A stretch of 64,000 nucleotides of DNA from sequence record PZ386973.1; one strand, written 5' to 3'. This DNA is from a phage. Both the position numbers and the translations under genes were made by a program. How positions within the stretch are numbered: position 1 is the stretch's first letter; each line of letters starts with the position of its first letter. Below the pieces are notes generated by a model. That model was given only the letters and a program-made list of their open reading frames with translations, was not told the DNA's origin and made no database searches. Below are positions 9,118 through 64,000 of this stretch, piece after piece.

Positions 9118-9167
9118 TTACATATCCCAAATACACAAAAAGCCCCATATAGGGGCTAATTGGTTTC

Positions 9168-9464
9168 TTATCGGCCTACTGGAGAAGCACGATCTAACTC
9201 TGATTGGAGGCTAGTCACACGACGGACTTTCTCGACAGGAATAAAACGGAAGCTATCATTAGTACGAGAGAAGACAAGGATTTCATCATCTTTCGCTTTA
9301 CGAATACGTTCACGTTTAATACGCTCAGCCAGATATTTATCCTGGGCTGGATCAAATTCCATCGTACCCTGAAGGTACGTGGTTCCTTTCTGACGAAGTT
9401 TCTCGTAATGAAGATAAAACTCACCAAATTTTTCACATTGTGCGATAATTTCAGCTTTGGTCAT
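9168..9464 (-). CDS. hypothetical protein
   Basis: 98-aa ORF, leftward strand. Confidence 0.4.
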   Translation of the reverse strand: MTKAEIIAQCEKFGEFYLHYEKLRQKGTTYLQGTMEFDPAQDKYLAERIKRERIRKAKDDEILVFSRTNDSFRFIPVEKVRRVTSLQSELDRASPVGR

Positions 9465-9500
9465 AACTGTGTTCCTTTTGTTGGTGGATTTATCTAAAAA

Positions 9501-9911
9501 TTACTTAGTGATAGCTCGGATTGCTTCTGCCAGATGAGCAGCTGCTTTACCGGTCAGTTTGTCGATAATTGCATCATCCAGAAAATCTGGTGCTAAGCCA
9601 GCATCAGAGAATGCTGAACGAAGATCGGCGTGGGCTTGGGCTTTGGAAGTACGAGAACCACCAGAAGCTTTTTCTCCGGTAGACGCGCTAGATTTAGAAG
9701 CAGAGCCAGCAGCTTTCTTGATATACAAACCTGCTTTAGTTAGCTTCATACGAAAACCGTTCGGAGTTACACCATTTTCCTGGGCAATTTCGCTAACAAT
9801 TTCCATGCTAACACCCGGACGTTCATCTTCTGGGAATTTCTCCATACGAGCAACATATTCGGAAGACATTTTTTCGAACAGTTCATCAGTCCACTGAGTT
9901 GGAGTAGTCAT
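9501..9911 (-). CDS. hypothetical protein
   Basis: 136-aa ORF with Ser/Ala/Gly-rich C-terminal half. Confidence 0.4.
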   Translation of the reverse strand: MTTPTQWTDELFEKMSSEYVARMEKFPEDERPGVSMEIVSEIAQENGVTPNGFRMKLTKAGLYIKKAAGSASKSSASTGEKASGGSRTSKAQAHADLRSAFSDAGLAPDFLDDAIIDKLTGKAAAHLAEAIRAITK

Positions 9912-10017
9912 ATTTTATATTTCCTTAATTAAGAATTAAACAGAATAGTTCTTTCAAACTATGAGAATATTATATCAAGAATTATAGGATTAAGCAACTG
10001 AAATTTTTCGGTAATTG

Positions 10018-10278
10018 CTACACATCTAGCTCAACAATCTCCCAATCATCCGCTAGAGCTTCGTCTAGTGTTAATTCAACTTCTTCATCACTAGGCAGTA
10101 GTGTAGTATCTGAAGGCATCCACACATATTGGCGTACAGTATTGCTGTCTACGTCAAATTTCAATAGTACAGTATATTCTTTATTATTTTCCCAGCAATC
10201 TCGCTGGAGATATTTTACGTCTCCAGCTTTCAGCAAATCAGTTAGCTTACTCACGGCGTTTTCCTTTTTCTTTATCAA
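10018..10278 (-). CDS. hypothetical acidic protein
   Basis: 86-aa ORF; overlaps the start of the next gene. Confidence 0.35.
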   Translation of the reverse strand: MIKKKENAVSKLTDLLKAGDVKYLQRDCWENNKEYTVLLKFDVDSNTVRQYVWMPSDTTLLPSDEEVELTLDEALADDWEIVELDV

Positions 10279-10951
10279 GTTTCAGGGCAGCCTTAACAGC
10301 TTCGTTAATCAATGTAATAATTTCTTCACGAGTCCACTTGTACCCAAGGGATTTTACGTCAACCCCTAACTTTTCCAGGTGTTTAACAGAAGCCAGCTCA
10401 TAATTCATATAATGAACGTTCTGTTGTTTGCCTTCCGATAGAAGCCATACGCGGTAACAACCAACAGGGTTATCCATTGCTTTTTTGATTTCACCGATAC
10501 ACTGATATCCAGGAACCCAGACAAGTTCTCCAACCTCAAATTCTTCTGCTACAGCATCATCAGGAATAATTGGTGGATTCAATGGATCTACAATATCATT
10601 CAAACGAAGCAGAGCGCCATAGCGTTCCAGAACAGATTTAACCATTGCTACAGAGCGGTAATTACGATCGGCAATTTCTTCAAAAGAATCACCAGACAAA
10701 TACTGCTCAATAACGTTAGCTAACTCAATGCCTTCAATGAGAGTGCCGCGTTTCTTTTTCTTCATTTCGGCAACTTGAATCTGGCGGTCTTGCCATTCTT
10801 CAATCATCCTTTCCATAGTTGGATTGGACGATACGCCGAGCATTTCACATGCTGCTTTCTTGGTACCACCGTTCTCCAGATGCTCTATAACCTTTTTAAA
10901 GACTTCATCAGGGATTTCATGGATATGTTTCTTTCTGCGAGAACCAGCCAT
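10247..10951 (-). CDS. hypothetical protein (possible DNA-binding regulator)
   Basis: 234-aa ORF; N-terminal helix-turn-helix-like segment (GGTKKAACEMLGVS); directly downstream of the PN25-like promoter. Confidence 0.45.
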   Translation of the reverse strand: MAGSRRKKHIHEIPDEVFKKVIEHLENGGTKKAACEMLGVSSNPTMERMIEEWQDRQIQVAEMKKKKRGTLIEGIELANVIEQYLSGDSFEEIADRNYRSVAMVKSVLERYGALLRLNDIVDPLNPPIIPDDAVAEEFEVGELVWVPGYQCIGEIKKAMDNPVGCYRVWLLSEGKQQNVHYMNYELASVKHLEKLGVDVKSLGYKWTREEIITLINEAVKAALKLDKEKGKRRE

Positions 10952-50383: not shown

Positions 50384-51135
50384 TGTCAGTATTAGTCGGT
50401 TTACATGGTGAAGCTGGTTCGGGAAAAGATACCGTTGCAAAATTAATTATCGATTGGTGTAGTGACACGTATCCAACGTGTTTATCCCGTCGTTACAGTT
50501 TTGCTAAGCCCGTTTATGAACTTGCATCCGTAATCCTCGGTGTAACTCCAGAGTTTCTAGGAGAGCGCAGGGGAAAAGAGATTGATCAATGGTTTACGGT
50601 CACACAATCTCAATTGGAGCGAGCCAGAGATGTGTGGTTTAAGTACGGTATCGATAAGTTTGAAGACTTCTCGTACGTTTGGCCTATTTTTGAGGAAAAA
50701 TATCTTAATCCTCAACAACTTATCTCAGAGAGTAAAGAAGACGGACTTTATAGTTTATTTATTTCTCCGAGAAAAATGTTACAGCTCGTAGGAACAGAGC
50801 TAGGAAGGCAGCTGGTGCATGAACGCATTTGGCTCATAATTCTGGAGCAATCCATCGCTAAAGACGACCCAGACGTCGCCATAATAACAGATGTTAGATT
50901 CCCCAATGAAGGAGAGCTACTCAGAGAAACAAACCATTTAGATATGGATTCTTTGATAGTAAATGTAGTACCCGCTGAGCAGAAGTTCACTATTAAATCA
51001 GATCATCCATCTGAAAGTGGTATTCCTGCAAAATATATTACTCACGAATTAGTTAATAAATTCGATGGTATCAATAACCTTAAACTAGAAGTTTATAACT
51101 TCTGTGACTTAGAGCTAGAACCACTAGTTGGATAA
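50383..51135 (+). CDS. deoxynucleoside monophosphate kinase-like P-loop protein
   Basis: Walker A GLHGEAGSGKDT; 250 aa; coupled start. Confidence 0.6.
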   Translation: MSVLVGLHGEAGSGKDTVAKLIIDWCSDTYPTCLSRRYSFAKPVYELASVILGVTPEFLGERRGKEIDQWFTVTQSQLERARDVWFKYGIDKFEDFSYVWPIFEEKYLNPQQLISESKEDGLYSLFISPRKMLQLVGTELGRQLVHERIWLIILEQSIAKDDPDVAIITDVRFPNEGELLRETNHLDMDSLIVNVVPAEQKFTIKSDHPSESGIPAKYITHELVNKFDGINNLKLEVYNFCDLELEPLVG

Positions 51136-60204: not shown

Positions 60205-60389
60205 TGGAAACACTTTTTCTTTTAATGCTCGTAGGTTCGTTAGTAGTTATATTAGCACTCCTATTAATCTGTAATATTCTTAATAATAAGAATTTAGGAC
60301 TAAAGTGTGAAAACCAAATCCTCAACCGTGAACTTAAACAATATAATCTAGCAGCACATAAGCTGCTAGACAAACTGGAGAATAAGTAA
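60204..60389 (+). CDS. hypothetical membrane protein
   Basis: 61 aa with an N-terminal transmembrane helix. Confidence 0.35.
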   Translation: METLFLLMLVGSLVVILALLLICNILNNKNLGLKCENQILNRELKQYNLAAHKLLDKLENK

Positions 60390-60994
60390 TGACTTTATAT
60401 GCACAACAACCTGTTCAAGTAGTACCAGACCATGAGTTAAATACTTGGGATTATAGCTTCAAAGATTTAACTGCTACTGTACAGTTCAAATCTATGAAAT
60501 TAACCTTTGCACATACTGATATTAAAGCATGTAAAGATTTTGAAGGTAAACTAAAAGAAGCTCGTAAGATTTTTGGCAGGGCTCGCATCCCAGCTGATAA
60601 TCTAATTAATACACTAATCGATGCTGGCTATAAACTCGTGAAGACCGAGGTGAACCGTCCTGATACTCCTATAACTGTTGGAGGTTACTGGGCTAAAAGT
60701 GGTATAGCATTTAATCCTAAAATAACGTCGGAAATGCACAATGTTCCATGCGGTGGCAATATAGAAAATAGTTCCTCATATCGAGTTGGTGAAGATTACG
60801 GCCCATCTGTACAGTTGAAACATACTCAAGAGGCTTTTGAATCTGACATGAAAAGCGTAGCACCTGCGGATACTAAAGGTTTTAGAAGTCCCATCTATGT
60901 TACTCACTTTAATAATCTTAGGCCTGGGAGTATAAATGATACTATCCTTGAAGCGTTGGGAGCTGCTCTTAATGAAGATAAGAGAGGTAGTTAA
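60389..60994 (+). CDS. hypothetical protein
   Basis: 201-aa ORF. Confidence 0.45.
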   Translation: MTLYAQQPVQVVPDHELNTWDYSFKDLTATVQFKSMKLTFAHTDIKACKDFEGKLKEARKIFGRARIPADNLINTLIDAGYKLVKTEVNRPDTPITVGGYWAKSGIAFNPKITSEMHNVPCGGNIENSSSYRVGEDYGPSVQLKHTQEAFESDMKSVAPADTKGFRSPIYVTHFNNLRPGSINDTILEALGAALNEDKRGS

Positions 60995-61725
60995 TGAAAG
61001 ATTTGGCTGTAAAGTTTAAGAATATTCTAGCCCTCGCTAAGGGGGCTGATCATCGCTGTTTCTCTGATTTAACCACTGAAGAGAAACATGCAGTAATGTT
61101 TGTTTGCGAAATGTTCCCAGCTAGATGGGAGGGTGGTAAGATTAAGTATGATAACAAAGCAGCAAAAGCTGACCTTGCTTATTCTTACGTTGATATGAAT
61201 AAACTCCTAAAGTCTTTAGACCCCACTGCTAAAGGTCACATGGGAAACTATATTCATGTTATCATTGATGAACCTCTCCCGGCTTATAGAGAAACATCCG
61301 CTAGAGAAGCATTAGAAGCATATCCAGAACAATTATACATTCCGCCTAAGAAATGTAAGTTCGATCATCTTCCAGCGTTAGCATTTGAAACTAGTATCAC
61401 GTTTGAAGATATTTATAGAACGATTGGAGCTGTAGTAGCACGGATTGCAGTGGCACATCATCGTGGCATAGAACTTACTACAGCGGAAGATTATATTCTA
61501 TACGCTATCCATGATGAAAAGGACTCCTTCAAACGTCTAATGGATGCTCTAGGATTAGGCAGTCTCACAGCGCTTGTGCTTAACCAGGCTCCTAGAACCA
61601 AGCGTTATGCAAAAGGATCTATTACTCTTGAAGAAACAGGGTCTACATCTTCATTCCTTGCTACATATATTTATTTAGCATCTAAAGGAATCTATCTAAA
61701 GGCTAGAAAGAATGTCACTATATAA
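60994..61725 (+). CDS. hypothetical protein
   Basis: 243-aa ORF. Confidence 0.45.
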   Translation: MKDLAVKFKNILALAKGADHRCFSDLTTEEKHAVMFVCEMFPARWEGGKIKYDNKAAKADLAYSYVDMNKLLKSLDPTAKGHMGNYIHVIIDEPLPAYRETSAREALEAYPEQLYIPPKKCKFDHLPALAFETSITFEDIYRTIGAVVARIAVAHHRGIELTTAEDYILYAIHDEKDSFKRLMDALGLGSLTALVLNQAPRTKRYAKGSITLEETGSTSSFLATYIYLASKGIYLKARKNVTI

Positions 61726-62068
61726 AGTATATATTCTTGCAAACAGGGATCTGACAAAGATCCCTAAGAGAACAAAGATCGGTATTAGCATGAATCCACA
61801 TAATAGGATTCAAACACTAAACTTAGATAAGATAGTCTATCGAGGTTTTGACGATTTATACGTGTATGGGGTCTATGAAACCCATAATCCTAGAGATCTA
61901 GAAGCCGCTGCTCATATCTACTTTAAGAAATACCGTTGTAATTTAAAGGGATTCGAAGGATGTACAGAGTTCTTTGATATTCACCCACAACTTGCAGAAC
62001 GATTCCTATTAAATACAGGAGCCAAGAAGATTTACGATCCCAATACCAATCTCGAAGGAGATGTATAA
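61712..62068 (+). CDS. GIY-YIG-like / T5orf172-domain-like protein
   Basis: N-terminal YKVYILAN...KIGIS...R pattern resembling the GIY-YIG-related T5orf172 domain; last plus-strand gene before the repeat region. Confidence 0.4.
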   Translation: MSLYKVYILANRDLTKIPKRTKIGISMNPHNRIQTLNLDKIVYRGFDDLYVYGVYETHNPRDLEAAAHIYFKKYRCNLKGFEGCTEFFDIHPQLAERFLLNTGAKKIYDPNTNLEGDV

Positions 62069-62085
62069 ACATTAACAAAATCTTC

Positions 62086-62115
62086 TTGACAACTCATTGC
62101 GGCACATGTTATAAT
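62086..62115 (+). promoter_or_regulatory. sigma70-type promoter reading into the non-coding repeat region
   Basis: Consensus TTGACA-18 nt-TATAAT with no ORF downstream. Confidence 0.45.
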
Positions 62116-62154
62116 AATCTCATAGATTAAAAACAACTCTTGTTTTGAACTCTA

Positions 62155-62253
62155 GGGGCGATGATTATTACACTTAGTATTACGTCTATACGTTGCGACA
62201 GCACGAGTATAGATCTAATTACTAAGTCTTCCGTAATACTCACGCGCCCCACG
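62155..62253. repeat. large imperfect palindrome
   Basis: GGGGCG...CGCCCC flanks with nested inverted repeats (CTTAGTATTACG/CGTAATACT, TCTATAC/GTATAGA). Confidence 0.5.
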
Positions 62254-62467
62254 AGTAAGCTCTCATGAAATGGGGGGACTATTTACTTTTAAAATATATG
62301 AAAATATTTAAAGGCAATATCTGTGTTCAAGATGGTACACCTGTTGCCGCTCTTCTGCTAGGATGGCACAACACTTTCTTCTAGACTCCTAAGTTTATCA
62401 CGAAATACCACACTTCTAGTGGGCGGTTCTCCTAAGTTTCTAGGAACATATACTAGGCGGTTAATAC

Positions 62468-62508
62468 AGGGCGGTTATAGGGAGGGCGGTTATAGGGAGG
62501 GCGGTTAT
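62468..62508. repeat. tandem direct repeats of GGGCGGTTAT(AGGGA), three copies
   Basis: GGGCGGTTATAGGGAGGGCGGTTATAGGGAGGGCGGTTAT read directly; a further GGCGGTT copy at 62456. Confidence 0.7.
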
Positions 62509-62550
62509 TTCTAGAAGACATTTTTTGAAAACACATTTCCAGAAATTACT

Positions 62551-63150
62551 GTCGGATTTGCACACTGCATTTCTAGAAATTTATGGTCGGATTTGCACAA
62601 ACGCCTAAGTTTTTAGGAACATATAATCTCTTGAAAATAGCAGCATTATTTCGGGCCGAAGGCCCATGATTGCCTGAGTTTTTAGAGCCACAGAAATTTT
62701 CCCTTGTCAAGCTATTTTGCCACATTTAGCTAATAAAATTTTACTTTTTCTGCACCTATCTCAAATCTTCTCCAATTATCTCAACTCTTCCCCAAAATCC
62801 CGGCAAATCTGGTGCTCCGCACCAACCATGCGCCCACATCCCTCTAGTCCCCAAAATTTCTTCGTTCTCTCAACTTCTCTCCAAACCTATACAATCACAC
62901 ACCCTCTAATCGAAGTCATAAAAATCTTGTCGGATTCGCACATCTTAATCCTAGAAAAACCGTGTCGGATTTGCACATACCCCACAGGATTCGAACGCAG
63001 TTCGTGATTGCTGGAGTTTTTGGGAAAATTCATTGTCGGATTCGCACACTATAAAAATTTTTAGGGTCGGATTTGCACACTACCAAAAATTGTCGGATTC
63101 GCACATACACGCCAGCACGTAACCCGTGGAGCAAATGTCGGATTTGCACA
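62551..63150 (+). repeat. iteron array: eight direct copies of GTCGGATT(T/C)GCACA
   Basis: Copies at 62551, 62586, 62929, 62964, 63035, 63066, 63092 and 63137, all same orientation, irregular spacing. Confidence 0.8.
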
Positions 63151-63157
63151 AAAGCGC

Positions 63158-63175
63158 AGGGCAATTGCCCTGCTA
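63158..63175. repeat. perfect 18-bp palindrome GCAGGGCAATTGCCCTGC
   Basis: Read directly; immediately follows the last iteron. Confidence 0.7.
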
Positions 63176-63193
63176 GTTTGAATGCGAATAAAA

Positions 63194-63328
63194 ATGAGAA
63201 TCATTATCATTTAAAAAGCGGAATGCGAATGAGAATCATTATCATTTACGAAAGGGAATGAGAACTATTCAGGAAGTGAAACGATTCTCATTTAGATAGT
63301 GAAATGCGAATGATAATGATTCGCATTT
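63194..63328. repeat. direct and inverted repeats of GAATGAGAATCATTATCATTT
   Basis: Two direct copies (63194, 63227), a partial copy (63257) and an inverted copy (AATGATAATGATTCGCATT, about 63304). Confidence 0.7.
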
Positions 63329-63360
63329 AAAAACGGAAGTGAGAAACACTGTTATTTAAG

Positions 63361-63453
63361 TTATCCACAGACTTATCAACAGCACGATTTGACTTGACAA
63401 AATCCTAGCCATTTTGAGGCGTTATTAACAGACTTATCCACAGCTTATCCTAC
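63361..63453 (+). promoter_or_regulatory. cluster of DnaA-box-like 9-mers
   Basis: TTATCCACA at 63361 and 63434 (consensus), TTATCAACA at 63373, TTATTAACA at 63422, within a direct repeat ACAGACTTATC(A/C)ACAGC. Confidence 0.6.
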
Positions 63454-63470
63454 TGTATAAATATACAGTA
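63451..63470. repeat. perfect palindrome TACTGTATAAATATACAGTA
   Basis: Read directly; adjacent to the DnaA-box-like cluster. Confidence 0.7.
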
Positions 63471-63720
63471 TTCCTACGCAGTGAATAGTTCTAATATAGC
63501 GTTAAAACGTCCTAGATCGCATTCTAACGCGTTTAATTTTGGTGGGGATACTAAAACAAGGGGGTATTTATCTGGAGGGAGAAAAACGGGGATCAGATCC
63601 CCGTCGATTATTAGAAAAGAGGGCAATTATCCCGCTTTGCCATTTCGCGCCACTCATCCTGATGCCTAGACTTGCGACGGCGTACTAAAAACCGTTTATA
63701 CCAGTGATTAAACCATCGTT

Positions 63721-63924
63721 TCATAAATCCTCCTCAGGTAGTCGATGCGTGATCTTCTCCTCTTCCCCATAGGAATCGACCAAATGTTGATAATAACCAT
63801 CGGCATCATAAATCACTTTATCATATTCGCCACGCTCGACCGCTTGCCGATTCTCAGGTGTATCCGGCACATAGAAAACATCAACCATTGTGGTAGTTTT
63901 GGTCACAATAATTTTATTGCTCAT
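63721..63924 (-). CDS. hypothetical small protein
   Basis: 67-aa ORF on the minus strand beyond the repeat region. Confidence 0.3.
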   Translation of the reverse strand: MSNKIIVTKTTTMVDVFYVPDTPENRQAVERGEYDKVIYDADGYYQHLVDSYGEEEKITHRLPEEDL

Positions 63925-64000
63925 AATAACGCTCCGTTATTAAAAATCCCCATATATTCCCGGCCAAATTTTACTAGTAACATAAGTTACTATCCCGGCA

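What the first reader, a model, noticed from the sequence alone, without database searches (positions are those of the whole stretch)
62400..63480. Iteron array plus DnaA-box-like cluster in a 1.4-kb non-coding region at the edge of the early region
Eight same-orientation copies of GTCGGATT(T/C)GCACA sit next to two consensus DnaA boxes (TTATCCACA), two near-consensus boxes, GGGCGGTTAT tandem repeats and several perfect palindromes. This is the layout of a protein-binding control region such as a replication origin, or an injection-stop-like signal as reported for T5. A strong promoter at 62086 reads into it although it contains no ORF.
Basis: partly seen in the sequence, partly recalled or inferred. 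Interest (0 to 1): 0.7.

Follow-up and report, generated by a model that had tools for sequence, protein, structure and literature searches.

The report
T5-type injection-stop / terminal-repeat boundary region
This is the already described untranslated "injection stop signal" region at the inner end of the terminal repeat of a T5-like phage, so the repeats are real but not a new discovery, although how they work is still unsolved.

Summary
There are eight exact, same-strand copies of GTCGGATTYGCACA, four DnaA-type boxes, GGCGGTT repeats, palindromes and a consensus promoter, in about 1.4 kb with no conserved ORF.

It is not new. The window is a T5-like phage (Tequintavirus) read on the T5 minus strand. 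Positions 62257-63942 align colinearly with T5 at 91% identity. The finding covers T5 "Repeat Region 3", annotated "injection stop signal". The iterons are T5 direct repeats D1-D8. The DnaA boxes are direct repeat B inside IRD'-spacer-IRC'. The T5 7.9% nick motif lies at 63154-63161. The terminal-repeat end maps to 62685, inside the iteron array.

The same layout recurs in Salmonella, Yersinia, Klebsiella, Pectobacterium and Vibrio relatives.

Most likely function: the cis region where first-step DNA transfer pauses and restarts. Host-type sites (DnaA boxes and Fur-box-like palindromes) lie on the side that enters first. Phage-specific iterons lie only on the side that enters later.

Main rival for the iterons: a packaging or terminus-formation signal. 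A replication origin is unlikely.

I found no report of the Fur-box resemblance in the text-search library. It is a testable lead, not a demonstrated function.

The parts
62086..62115 (+). Consensus sigma-70 promoter (TTGACA, 18 nt, TATAAT, with TG extended -10) that follows the last early gene and reads towards the terminal repeat.
   Evidence: 12 of 12 positions. A promoter of the same type sits at the same place in T5, Klebsiella L047 and Vibrio L048/L072.
62155..62251 (+). Long hairpin downstream of the promoter. The outer stem is invariant and the apex is replaced in relatives.
   Evidence: RNA fold -54 kcal/mol, z = -6.2. Eleven relatives fall into three apex types that still pair; 7 pairs show changes on both sides. 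No Rfam family matched.
62422..62506 (+). Five GGCGGTT(A/C)T repeats, three of them exact GGGCGGTTAT. They lie outside the terminal repeat.
   Evidence: Also present in T5 and in the Klebsiella phage.
62551..62599 (+). Two iterons GTCGGATTTGCACA (T5 direct repeats D8 and D7), 134 and 99 nt outside the repeat end.
   Evidence: The distances are fixed in 27 distinct junctions.
62604..62665 (.). Palindrome CCTAAGTTTTTAGG (62604-62617) and hairpin GGGCCGAAGGCCC (62653-62665), just outside the repeat end.
   Evidence: Nearly invariant in 19 aligned relatives.
62680..62700 (.). Inner end of the terminal repeat, which is also the sequence of the right genome end: TTTTTA|GAGCCACAGAAATTTT. Position 62685 is the first repeat base in window orientation.
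   Evidence: T5 position 10139 maps to 62685. The Sepoy (PhageTerm) and phiR2-01 repeat ends map to the same base. The motif is conserved in Klebsiella phages. The window itself holds only one copy of the repeat, so this boundary is inferred by homology.
62700..62900 (+). G-poor, C-rich stretch containing T5 direct repeats A2 and A3 (62780-62798 and 62760-62776) and the palindrome GGTGCTCCGCACC (62811-62823).
   Evidence: GC skew -0.64. Feature mapping. The same strand asymmetry, with different sequence, occurs in Klebsiella and Vibrio relatives.
62929..63150 (+). Six iterons (T5 D6 to D1) at 62929, 62964, 63035, 63066, 63092 and 63137, inside the repeat.
   Evidence: Nine of the 14 core positions are 100% conserved and four more 97-99%, against variable flanks, in 216 copies. 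All copies are on one strand in every locus examined.
63154..63173 (+). T5 major nick motif GCGCAGGG (63154-63161), overlapping palindrome J GCAGGGCAATTGCCCTGC (63156-63173). On the minus strand this palindrome looks like a terminator.
   Evidence: Mapping from the AY587007 annotation. Terminator scan. In nearly all relatives the motif starts 17 nt after the start of the last iteron.
63186..63332 (.). T5 direct repeats C1-C4 and palindromes E to I: AT-rich palindromes that resemble Fur boxes (AATGAGAATCATTATCATT).
   Evidence: Mapping. The only two matches with 3 or fewer mismatches to GATAATGATAATCATTATC in the 64 kb are here (expected 0.02). The seven best PWM hits in the window fall in 63190-63330.
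63338..63470 (+). IRC'-spacer-IRD' with two paired DnaA-type boxes (63361/63373 and 63422/63434), followed by palindrome D (63451-63470).
   Evidence: Described for 25 T5-like phages by Davison.
63586..63605 (-). Palindrome C, annotated in T5 as the rho-independent terminator that ends the last pre-early operon.
60727..60740 (+). Outlying degenerate iteron (GTCGGAAATGCACA) inside the early gene 60389-60994. It is an exact iteron at this position in T5 and many relatives.

Best explanation
The region is the T5-family untranslated 'Repeat Region 3', also called the injection stop signal (iss) region. It straddles the inner end of the left terminal repeat. It is a composite of cis-acting protein-binding sites arranged in a fixed order around the point where first-step DNA transfer halts (the 7.9% point, marked by the nick motif at 63154).

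Shown here: identity with the T5 region, conservation of the layout across genera, and the order of the elements.

Inferred mechanism:
- DNA enters from the high-coordinate side of the window.
- The last DNA to enter in the first step carries the paired DnaA boxes and the Fur-box-like palindromes. These match host-protein consensus sites and keep that consensus even in Vibrio relatives.
- Host proteins that are already present bind these sites and help hold the DNA. This fits the fact that the stop needs no new protein synthesis.
- The iterons lie only on the side that has not yet entered, starting 4 nt from the nick motif. Their sequence changes with phage lineage, which fits a phage-encoded binding protein.
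- The best candidate is the DNA-binding pre-early protein A2, together with A1. Binding to the iterons as they become accessible would restart transfer.
- The terminal-repeat end lies inside the same array, so the region probably also serves in end formation.
For: Identity with T5:
- 91% identity and colinearity with T5 over 62257-63942, with every annotated T5 element mapped.
- T5 records annotate this stretch as 'injection stop signal' and 'major nick 1, 7.9%'.

Statistics:
- Iterons: 8 exact copies against about 0.46 expected.
- DnaA boxes are clustered beyond chance.
- Fur-like sites are unique to this spot in the 64 kb.

Order of elements:
- In T5, no iteron occurs in the rest of the 10.2-kb repeat or in the 4.6 kb before it. 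All lie beyond the nick.
- The DnaA and Fur-like sites lie on the side of the nick that enters first.

Conservation:
- Iteron distances from the repeat end are fixed in 27 distinct junctions.
- The order iterons, GCGCAG, palindromes, DnaA boxes, palindrome D holds in Epseptimavirus, Sugarlandvirus and Vibrio phages. The Pectobacterium phage has nine same-strand iterons, DRC-like repeats and DnaA-type boxes, but I did not read its element order.
- Vibrio phages replace the iteron with TAGAATCCGCACTCACA yet keep exact TTATCCACA boxes and Fur-like palindromes.

Literature:
- The stop is placed in this non-coding region. A1 and A2 are required for second-step transfer. A2 binds DNA by an unknown mechanism.
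Against: - No experiment has mapped the stop signal to any element here. In the 2023 and 2026 papers I checked, the stop position or mechanism is still described as undetermined.
- In vitro, T5 ejects its whole genome into FhuA proteoliposomes (Davison). The DNA sequence alone therefore does not stop transfer.
- BF23 and other relatives use BtuB, which is not iron-regulated (my own knowledge). A Fur link to the receptor is therefore not general.
- The Fur-like sites are copies of one repeat, so the statistics amount to roughly one independent event.
- At the pause the iterons would lie outside the cytoplasm, so a cytoplasmic protein reaches them only as DNA moves.
- The iterons straddle the repeat end, which fits a packaging role equally well.
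- Binding of A2, DnaA or Fur is not testable with these tools.
Confidence: 0.55

Rival explanations
1. The iterons, and perhaps the GGCGGTT repeats, are the packaging or terminus-formation signal. The left end is injected first, so it should be packaged last (my inference). Packaging would then start at the right genome end, whose sequence is the repeat end at 62685. Repeated sites on both sides of that cut would recruit terminase, or the machinery that duplicates the terminal repeat. This would resemble cosB of lambda or the short-repeat arrays that flank the T7 terminal repeat.
For: - The repeat end determined independently in T5, Sepoy (PhageTerm) and phiR2-01 maps to one base, 62685. That base lies between two iteron groups at fixed distances: 99/134 nt outside and 243-452 nt inside.
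- The boundary motif GAGCCACAGRAATTTT is conserved in Klebsiella phages whose flanks have diverged.
- One to three iterons lie outside the repeat in every junction scored, and four in the Klebsiella phages when degenerate copies are counted. This fits a site that functions in the concatemer or junction context.
Against: - The two cut junctions of T5 share no 9-mer or longer.
- The left ends of T5, Sepoy, phiR2-01 and Sugarland carry no iterons.
- No terminase gene or binding data are available in the window.
- This rival does not explain the DnaA-box and palindrome modules, or why the iterons begin exactly at the nick.
Confidence: 0.25
2. Plasmid-like replication origin. A phage initiator binds the iterons. 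DnaA binds its boxes. The AT-rich palindrome block between them melts.
For: The layout recalls RK2 oriV or P1 oriR (from my own knowledge): eight direct repeats in two groups, four DnaA-type boxes and a 33% GC block between them. One extra iteron lies inside a neighbouring gene, reminiscent of lambda ori inside gene O.
Against: - Iteron spacing is irregular (35, 343, 35, 71, 31, 26, 45 nt) and the core is only 14 nt.
- The neighbouring genes have no Rep-like or other known domain, and their structure predictions were unusable.
- The literature places the T5 origins near the genome centre.
- Six of the iterons and all the boxes are duplicated in the right terminal repeat.
Confidence: 0.05
3. 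The repeats act at the RNA level or through transcription. The conserved strong promoter at 62086 makes a non-coding transcript that carries the eight repeats, for example as a protein-binding RNA. Alternatively, the C-rich stretch is a Rho-loading site that stops early transcription from entering the repeat.
For: - The promoter is conserved from Escherichia to Vibrio phages.
- It is followed by a structured leader with compensatory changes.
- All iterons are on the transcribed strand.
- A G-poor, C-rich stretch lies downstream.
Against: - No transcript data are available and no Rfam family matched.
- The six iterons in the right repeat copy have no such promoter upstream.
- The conservation is that of an exact 14-mer with fixed distances to a DNA end, which fits a DNA site better than an RNA site.
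Confidence: 0.07
4. Davison's model. Membrane-bound DnaA holds the DnaA boxes and so stops the DNA. A1 and A2 then cut at a site to the right of the stop signal in both terminal repeats, releasing the DNA and producing ends for circularisation.
For: Paired DnaA boxes are conserved in all relatives examined. The iterons lie where such a cleavage or recognition site is postulated.
Against: - The model is untested.
- No nuclease activity on T5 DNA at this site has been reported.
- Two of the eight iterons lie outside the repeat and so are absent from the right repeat copy. Symmetric cleavage at those sites is therefore impossible.
Confidence: 0.08

Closest known systems
Bacteriophage T5 injection stop signal region, also called 'Repeat Region 3' (Heusterspreute 1987 and Wang 2005 as cited by Davison; Davison 2020 bioRxiv 10.1101/866236; GenBank AY543070 9140-10149 and AY587007 9194-10409)
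   Same: Colinear at 91% identity. Shared elements: direct repeats D1-D8, direct repeat B with DnaA boxes inside IRD'-spacer-IRC', direct repeats C and A, palindromes C to J, the 7.9% nick motif, and the same position of the terminal-repeat end.
   Different: - The ninth T5 D repeat is missing here.
- The DnaA boxes are closer to consensus than in T5: TTATCCACA twice, where T5 has one TTATCCACA and one TTATCCCCA.
- The segment between the promoter and 62257 is a different sequence from T5; a GIY-YIG homing-endonuclease fragment lies just upstream of the promoter.
Iteron-type plasmid origins (RK2 oriV, P1 oriR, pSC101 ori); comparison from my own knowledge
   Same: Direct repeats in one orientation, placed next to DnaA boxes and an AT-rich block.
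   Different: Irregular spacing, a 14-nt core, no recognisable initiator gene alongside, duplication in a terminal repeat, and T5 origins mapped elsewhere.
Terminase recognition regions next to a genome end (lambda cosB R sites; the short-repeat arrays flanking the T7 terminal repeat); comparison from my own knowledge
   Same: Repeated short sites on both sides of the position where the mature genome end is made.
   Different: No binding protein is known. The other genome end has no equivalent motif. The terminal repeat is about 10 kb, not 160 bp.
Fur operators (19-bp iron box GATAATGATAATCATTATC; the published box GATAATGAGAATCATTATT is listed in PMC10665472)
   Same: Two 16-of-19 matches to the consensus, a 15-nt identity (AATGAGAATCATTAT) with the published box, and PWM scores of 20-21 bits, within the range of the training boxes.
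   Different: The sites do not overlap a recognisable promoter. They occur as tandem palindromes within a phage non-coding region. Binding is untested. I found no paper that links Fur to T5.

Membership tests
T5-family injection stop signal region / Repeat Region 3 | Sequence homology and colinearity with T5 9194-10409 | tested here: met
   91% identity over 1645 aligned columns (62257-63942). All annotated T5 elements mapped except D9.
T5-family injection stop signal region / Repeat Region 3 | Lies between the last pre-early genes and the first early genes and contains the inner end of the terminal repeat | tested here: met
   Gene order matches Kenya-K37, Lindwurm and T5. The repeat ends of T5, Sepoy and phiR2-01 map to 62685. 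The window holds only one repeat copy, so this rests on homology.
T5-family injection stop signal region / Repeat Region 3 | Carries D repeats, paired DnaA boxes in IRD'-spacer-IRC', C repeats/palindromes and the 7.9% nick motif | tested here: met
T5-family injection stop signal region / Repeat Region 3 | DNA transfer actually pauses here in vivo | not testable with these tools
   Known only from shear experiments in T5 and BF23.
Iteron-type replication origin | Regularly spaced iterons of about 17-22 bp | tested here: not met
   14-nt core with variable flanks. Spacings of 35, 343, 35, 71, 31, 26 and 45 nt.
Iteron-type replication origin | Initiator (Rep) gene next to the iterons | tested here: inconclusive
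   No domain found in Pfam, PHROGs or NCBIfam for the flanking proteins. AlphaFold2 models had pLDDT 59 and 41.
Iteron-type replication origin | Replication starts here | not testable with these tools
   The literature places the T5 origins near the genome centre.
Terminase recognition (pac/cos-like) site | Adjacent to the mature genome end | tested here: met
   The repeat end at 62685 lies within the array.
Terminase recognition (pac/cos-like) site | Related signal at the other cut site | tested here: not met
   The T5 junctions share no 9-mer or longer. The left ends of four phages carry no iterons.
Terminase recognition (pac/cos-like) site | Bound by the small terminase subunit | not testable with these tools
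   No binding data are available. The terminase genes are not in the window.
Fur operator | Match to the 19-bp Fur box | tested here: met
   16 of 19 twice, against an expected 0.02. PWM scores of 20-21 bits against a shuffle maximum averaging 14.4, and reaching 20.6 in the best of 200 shuffles.
Fur operator | Overlaps a regulated promoter and is bound by Fur-Fe | not tested
   The promoter scan found no promoter-like site within 63186-63332. Binding cannot be tested here.
DnaA-box cluster (oriC/datA-like) | Several boxes matching TTWTNCACA in one short stretch | tested here: met
   Two exact boxes, one with 1 mismatch and one with 2 mismatches, within 82 nt. A cluster of 3 occurred in 1 of 300 shuffles.
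DnaA-box cluster (oriC/datA-like) | The iterons themselves are DnaA boxes | tested here: not met
   ATTTGCACA is one base away from TTWTNCACA. The Vibrio-clade iteron (GCACTCACA) has 3 mismatches, and the invariant GTCGG half is not explained by this reading.

The most novel reading that the evidence does not exclude
The stop and the restart of T5 DNA transfer are encoded as two classes of site on either side of the 7.9% point.

On the side that enters first, a cluster of Fur boxes acts together with the DnaA boxes as a brake made of pre-existing host proteins. I found no report of these Fur boxes in the literature searched.

On the other side, about 600-730 bp carry lineage-specific iterons and GGCGGTT repeats. 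That length is close to the DNA that fills a 250-nm tail (tail length from my own knowledge). This stretch would be the loading track for the phage A2/A1 proteins that restart transfer.

Similar Fur-like palindrome clusters in unrelated coliphages (Justusliebigvirus alia, and 146-151-kb coliphages I did not classify) would then point to wider use of Fur sites by virulent phages.
Probability: 0.15. Interest if true: 0.65.

Novelty: already known. Interest (0 to 1): 0.25.

Why it matters
Two-step DNA transfer in T5 has been known since the 1960s, yet the reason for the stop and the restart remains unknown. The finding itself adds nothing to what the T5 annotation and Davison's comparison of 25 phages already contain.

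The comparative work here does sharpen the experiments that could settle the question:
- It separates the sites that keep a host-protein consensus across genera (DnaA boxes and Fur-like palindromes) from the iterons, which change with the phage lineage.
- It shows that the iterons occur only beyond the nick.
- It shows that the repeat end sits at a fixed base inside the array.

These points say which sites to mutate and which proteins to test.

Tried and rejected
1. Iterons as weak DnaA boxes. The enteric version is one base off the relaxed consensus, but the Vibrio version is not, and the invariant GTCGG half is unexplained. Rejected.

2. A common signal at both genome-end cut sites. The T5 junctions share no 9-mer or longer. 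The TAACCGCC near the T5 left end (the reverse of GGCGGTTA) is not conserved in Sepoy, phiR2-01 or Sugarland. Rejected.

3. Neighbouring early proteins as the iteron binder.
- No hit in Pfam or NCBIfam, and only families of unknown function in PHROGs.
- The homologue sets are shallow.
- AlphaFold2 models had pLDDT 59 and 41, so no fold search was run. This led nowhere.

4. Known RNA family. The only hit was a sub-threshold plant miRNA match (MIR172, 26.8 bits against a gathering score of 70), which I attribute to the long palindromes. T5, Klebsiella and Vibrio loci gave nothing.

5. Hidden small genes. Most ORFs in the region are broken in relatives, and none shows a clear codon-position pattern.

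6. An RNA protein-sponge reading of the iterons (a GGA in a short hairpin loop). Considered from the sequence alone and judged weak, because the base before GGA does not fit the CsrA preference (my own knowledge). Not tested.

7. Literature on a T5 pac site or on Fur and T5. Nothing relevant found.
Full report
**What is in the sequence**

The region was read directly.
- GTCGGATTYGCACA occurs eight times exactly, always on the + strand, at 62551, 62586, 62929, 62964, 63035, 63066, 63092 and 63137. Only 0.46 matches are expected in the whole 64 kb even when two mismatches are allowed.
- TTATCCACA is exact at 63361 and 63434. TTATCAACA (63373) and TTATTAACA (63422) are each paired with one of them at a 3-nt gap, forming two copies of a 24-nt unit.
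- Three such sites within 100 bp occurred in only 1 of 300 block shuffles.
- GGCGGTT occurs five times in 62422-62506.
- The palindromes and the promoter at 62086-62115 (12 of 12 positions, with TG) are real.
- No ORF in the region is convincingly conserved as coding. Most are broken in relatives, and the two that stay open in 14 of 18 show no clear codon-position bias.

**What it is**

Megablast against phage genomes gives 457 records, nearly all Escherichia and Salmonella T5-like phages. The best hits are 91-93% identical. In records with standard orientation the match is on the minus strand at about 8.7-10.8 kb. The window + strand is therefore the T5 minus strand, and the flanking + strand genes are the first early genes.

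T5 records annotate exactly this stretch. AY543070 labels 9140-10149 "injection stop signal (iss)". AY587007 lists palindromes C to J, inverted repeats D' and C', direct repeats A, B, C and D (nine copies), "major single-stranded nick 1, 7.9%" and the end of the left terminal repeat at 10139.

A pairwise alignment (91% identity, 62257-63942) maps every feature:
- The eight iterons are D1-D8. D9 is absent here.
- The DnaA boxes are direct repeat B, inside IRD'-spacer-IRC'.
- The nick motif GCGCAGGG is at 63154-63161, overlapping palindrome J.
- The AT-rich repeats at 63186-63332 are direct repeat C with palindromes E to I.
- The repeat end maps to 62685.

Davison's preprint (10.1101/866236) describes this "Repeat Region 3" in 25 phages, including the nine D repeats and the DnaA boxes. 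It proposes that membrane-bound DnaA stops the DNA. In the 2023 and 2026 papers I checked, the position or mechanism of the stop is still described as undetermined. The finding is therefore a rediscovery of a known, named, but mechanistically unsolved region.

**Comparative anatomy**

*Distribution and conservation*
- Pairs of iterons occur in IMG/VR only in 104-122 kb contigs, the size of T5-like genomes. Several match the lengths of records seen in the phage searches, among them T5 itself (121,750 bp).
- In every locus all copies are on one strand. In nearly all of them the last copy starts 17 nt before GCGCAGGG.
- In 27 distinct junctions the copies sit at fixed distances from the boundary motif: 99, 134 and sometimes 271 nt outside, and 243-452 nt inside.
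- Across 216 copies, nine of the 14 core positions are 100% conserved and four more 97-99%, while the flanks vary.

*The repeat end*
- The repeat ends of T5, Sepoy (PhageTerm) and phiR2-01 map to the same base, 62685 (TTTTTA|GAGCCACAG).
- This motif survives in Klebsiella phages whose flanks have diverged.

*Position relative to the nick*
- In T5, no iteron occurs anywhere else in the 10.2-kb repeat or in the 4.6 kb before it.
- The iterons lie only on the side of the nick that enters later. The DnaA boxes and palindromes lie on the side that enters first.

*More distant relatives*
- Klebsiella (Sugarlandvirus) and Pectobacterium (Hongcheonvirus) phages keep the same iteron.
- Vibrio T5-like phages keep the whole order: promoter, C-rich stretch, 2 plus 3 iterons, GCGCAG, AT-rich palindromes, TTATCCACA boxes and palindrome D.
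- In the Vibrio phages the iteron is TAGAATCCGCACTCACA, while the DnaA boxes remain exact.

I read this pattern as follows. The boxes are sites for conserved host proteins. The iterons are sites for a protein that diverges with the phage.

**Fur-box resemblance**

- The C repeats contain AATGAGAATCATTATCATT.
- The only two matches in the window with 3 or fewer mismatches to the Fur consensus GATAATGATAATCATTATC are here, against 0.02 expected.
- A matrix built from 11 published iron boxes (PMC10665472) places its seven best hits in the window at 63190-63330. They score 20-21 bits, against a shuffle maximum with mean 14.4 and sd 1.9; the best of 200 shuffles reached 20.6.
- One published box shares 15 contiguous bases with the repeat.
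- Every T5-like junction examined has at least one such hit next to the nick.
- In the T5 repeat the only other cluster is near the left end, inside dmp.
- Davison's text never mentions Fur. Searches for Fur together with T5 found nothing relevant.
- Similar palindrome clusters appear in unrelated coliphages: Justusliebigvirus alia, and several 146-151-kb coliphages that I did not classify.

The copies are repeats of one another, so this amounts to about one independent event. Binding is untested.

**Mechanism**

The following points are established from the literature read here:
- Transfer halts at about 7.9-8% without new protein synthesis.
- A1 and A2 are needed to resume.
- A2 binds DNA.
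- FhuA alone allows complete ejection in vitro.

The following is shown here: the ordered, conserved arrangement around the 7.9% nick motif, and the two classes of site.

The following is inferred:
- Pre-existing host proteins (DnaA, possibly Fur) bind the last-entering module and contribute to the hold.
- The iterons, which begin 4 nt from the nick motif and extend about 600 bp outward, are the first DNA available at restart. They are the likeliest target of A2/A1.

One geometric point uses tail length from my own knowledge. A tail of about 250 nm holds about 730 bp. The distance from the nick (63154) to the far end of the GGCGGTT repeats (62422) is 732 bp. The distal repeats may therefore correspond to the DNA lodged in the tail during the pause. 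This is speculative.

**Rivals**

- *Packaging or terminus signal.* This is the main rival for the iterons, because the repeat end lies inside the array. If the left end, injected first, is packaged last (my inference), then packaging starts at this end. Against it, the two T5 cut junctions share no motif, and the left ends of four phages carry no iterons.
- *Replication origin.* Unlikely. The spacing is irregular, no initiator is recognisable next to the array, and the T5 origins are mapped centrally.
- *RNA-level role.* Possible, because the promoter is conserved from Escherichia to Vibrio phages and is followed by a hairpin with compensatory changes. However, the six iterons in the right repeat copy lack this promoter, and no RNA family matched.

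**Verdict**

- The feature is already known.
- Its mechanism remains open. The polarity of the site classes, the lineage-specific iteron replacement and the Fur-box resemblance are leads for experiments, not demonstrated functions.

Noticed in passing
window 50565-50572 (+): A second copy of the T5 nick motif GCGCAGGG, on the same strand, near the place expected for the T5 18.5% major nick.
   Followed up: partly
window 62086-62290 (+); T5 L003, Klebsiella L047 1581-1610, Vibrio L048 and L072: An extended -10 consensus promoter reading from the early region towards the terminal repeat is conserved across genera.

In the window it is followed by a 97-nt hairpin (z = -6.2). The outer stem is invariant. 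The apex is replaced by three unrelated sequences that still pair.

T5 and the Klebsiella phage carry a different shared element at this position. No Rfam family matched.
   Followed up: partly
window 62700-62900 (+): A strongly G-poor, C-rich stretch just inside the repeat end (GC skew -0.64). The asymmetry is conserved in Klebsiella and Vibrio relatives although the sequence is not; in the Klebsiella phage the opposite strand has many G runs. It could be a Rho-loading site on the promoter transcript, or a G-rich 3' strand at the right genome end.
   Followed up: no
window 60727-60740 (+), inside ORF 60389-60994: An outlying iteron about 1.8 kb from the array, inside an early gene of unknown function. 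It is an exact 14-mer in T5 and many relatives and has 2 mismatches here. The protein has no recognisable domain and its AlphaFold2 model was poor.
   Followed up: partly
L051 (Klebsiella phage Sugarland, MG459987.2) position 2471: The PhageTerm 'repeat end' annotated in Sugarland falls at ...GCACATAA|GCGCAGG. That is the conserved nick site, not the conserved boundary motif GAGCCACAGG 350 nt away. The nick was probably mistaken for a genome end, which also suggests that the nick exists in Sugarlandvirus.
   Followed up: partly
L050 (Escherichia phage alia, NC_052655.1) 1476-1610; hits H111-H120: Unrelated coliphages carry clusters of the same Fur-box-like palindromes in non-coding DNA: Justusliebigvirus alia, and several 146-151-kb coliphages that I did not classify. 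In alia there are four or five copies, followed by GCGCAGGGGCGG.
   Followed up: partly
T5 terminal repeat positions 228-252 (L023, AY543070 numbering): The only other Fur-matrix cluster in the T5 repeat (GGAACTGATAATCATTATCATCCTC, up to 20 bits). It lies about 230 nt from the left genome end, inside dmp.
   Followed up: no
window 61712-62068 (+): A 118-aa GIY-YIG/T5orf172 homing-endonuclease fragment directly upstream of the promoter. The T5-colinear alignment begins only at 62257, about 190 nt downstream of this ORF.
   Followed up: partly
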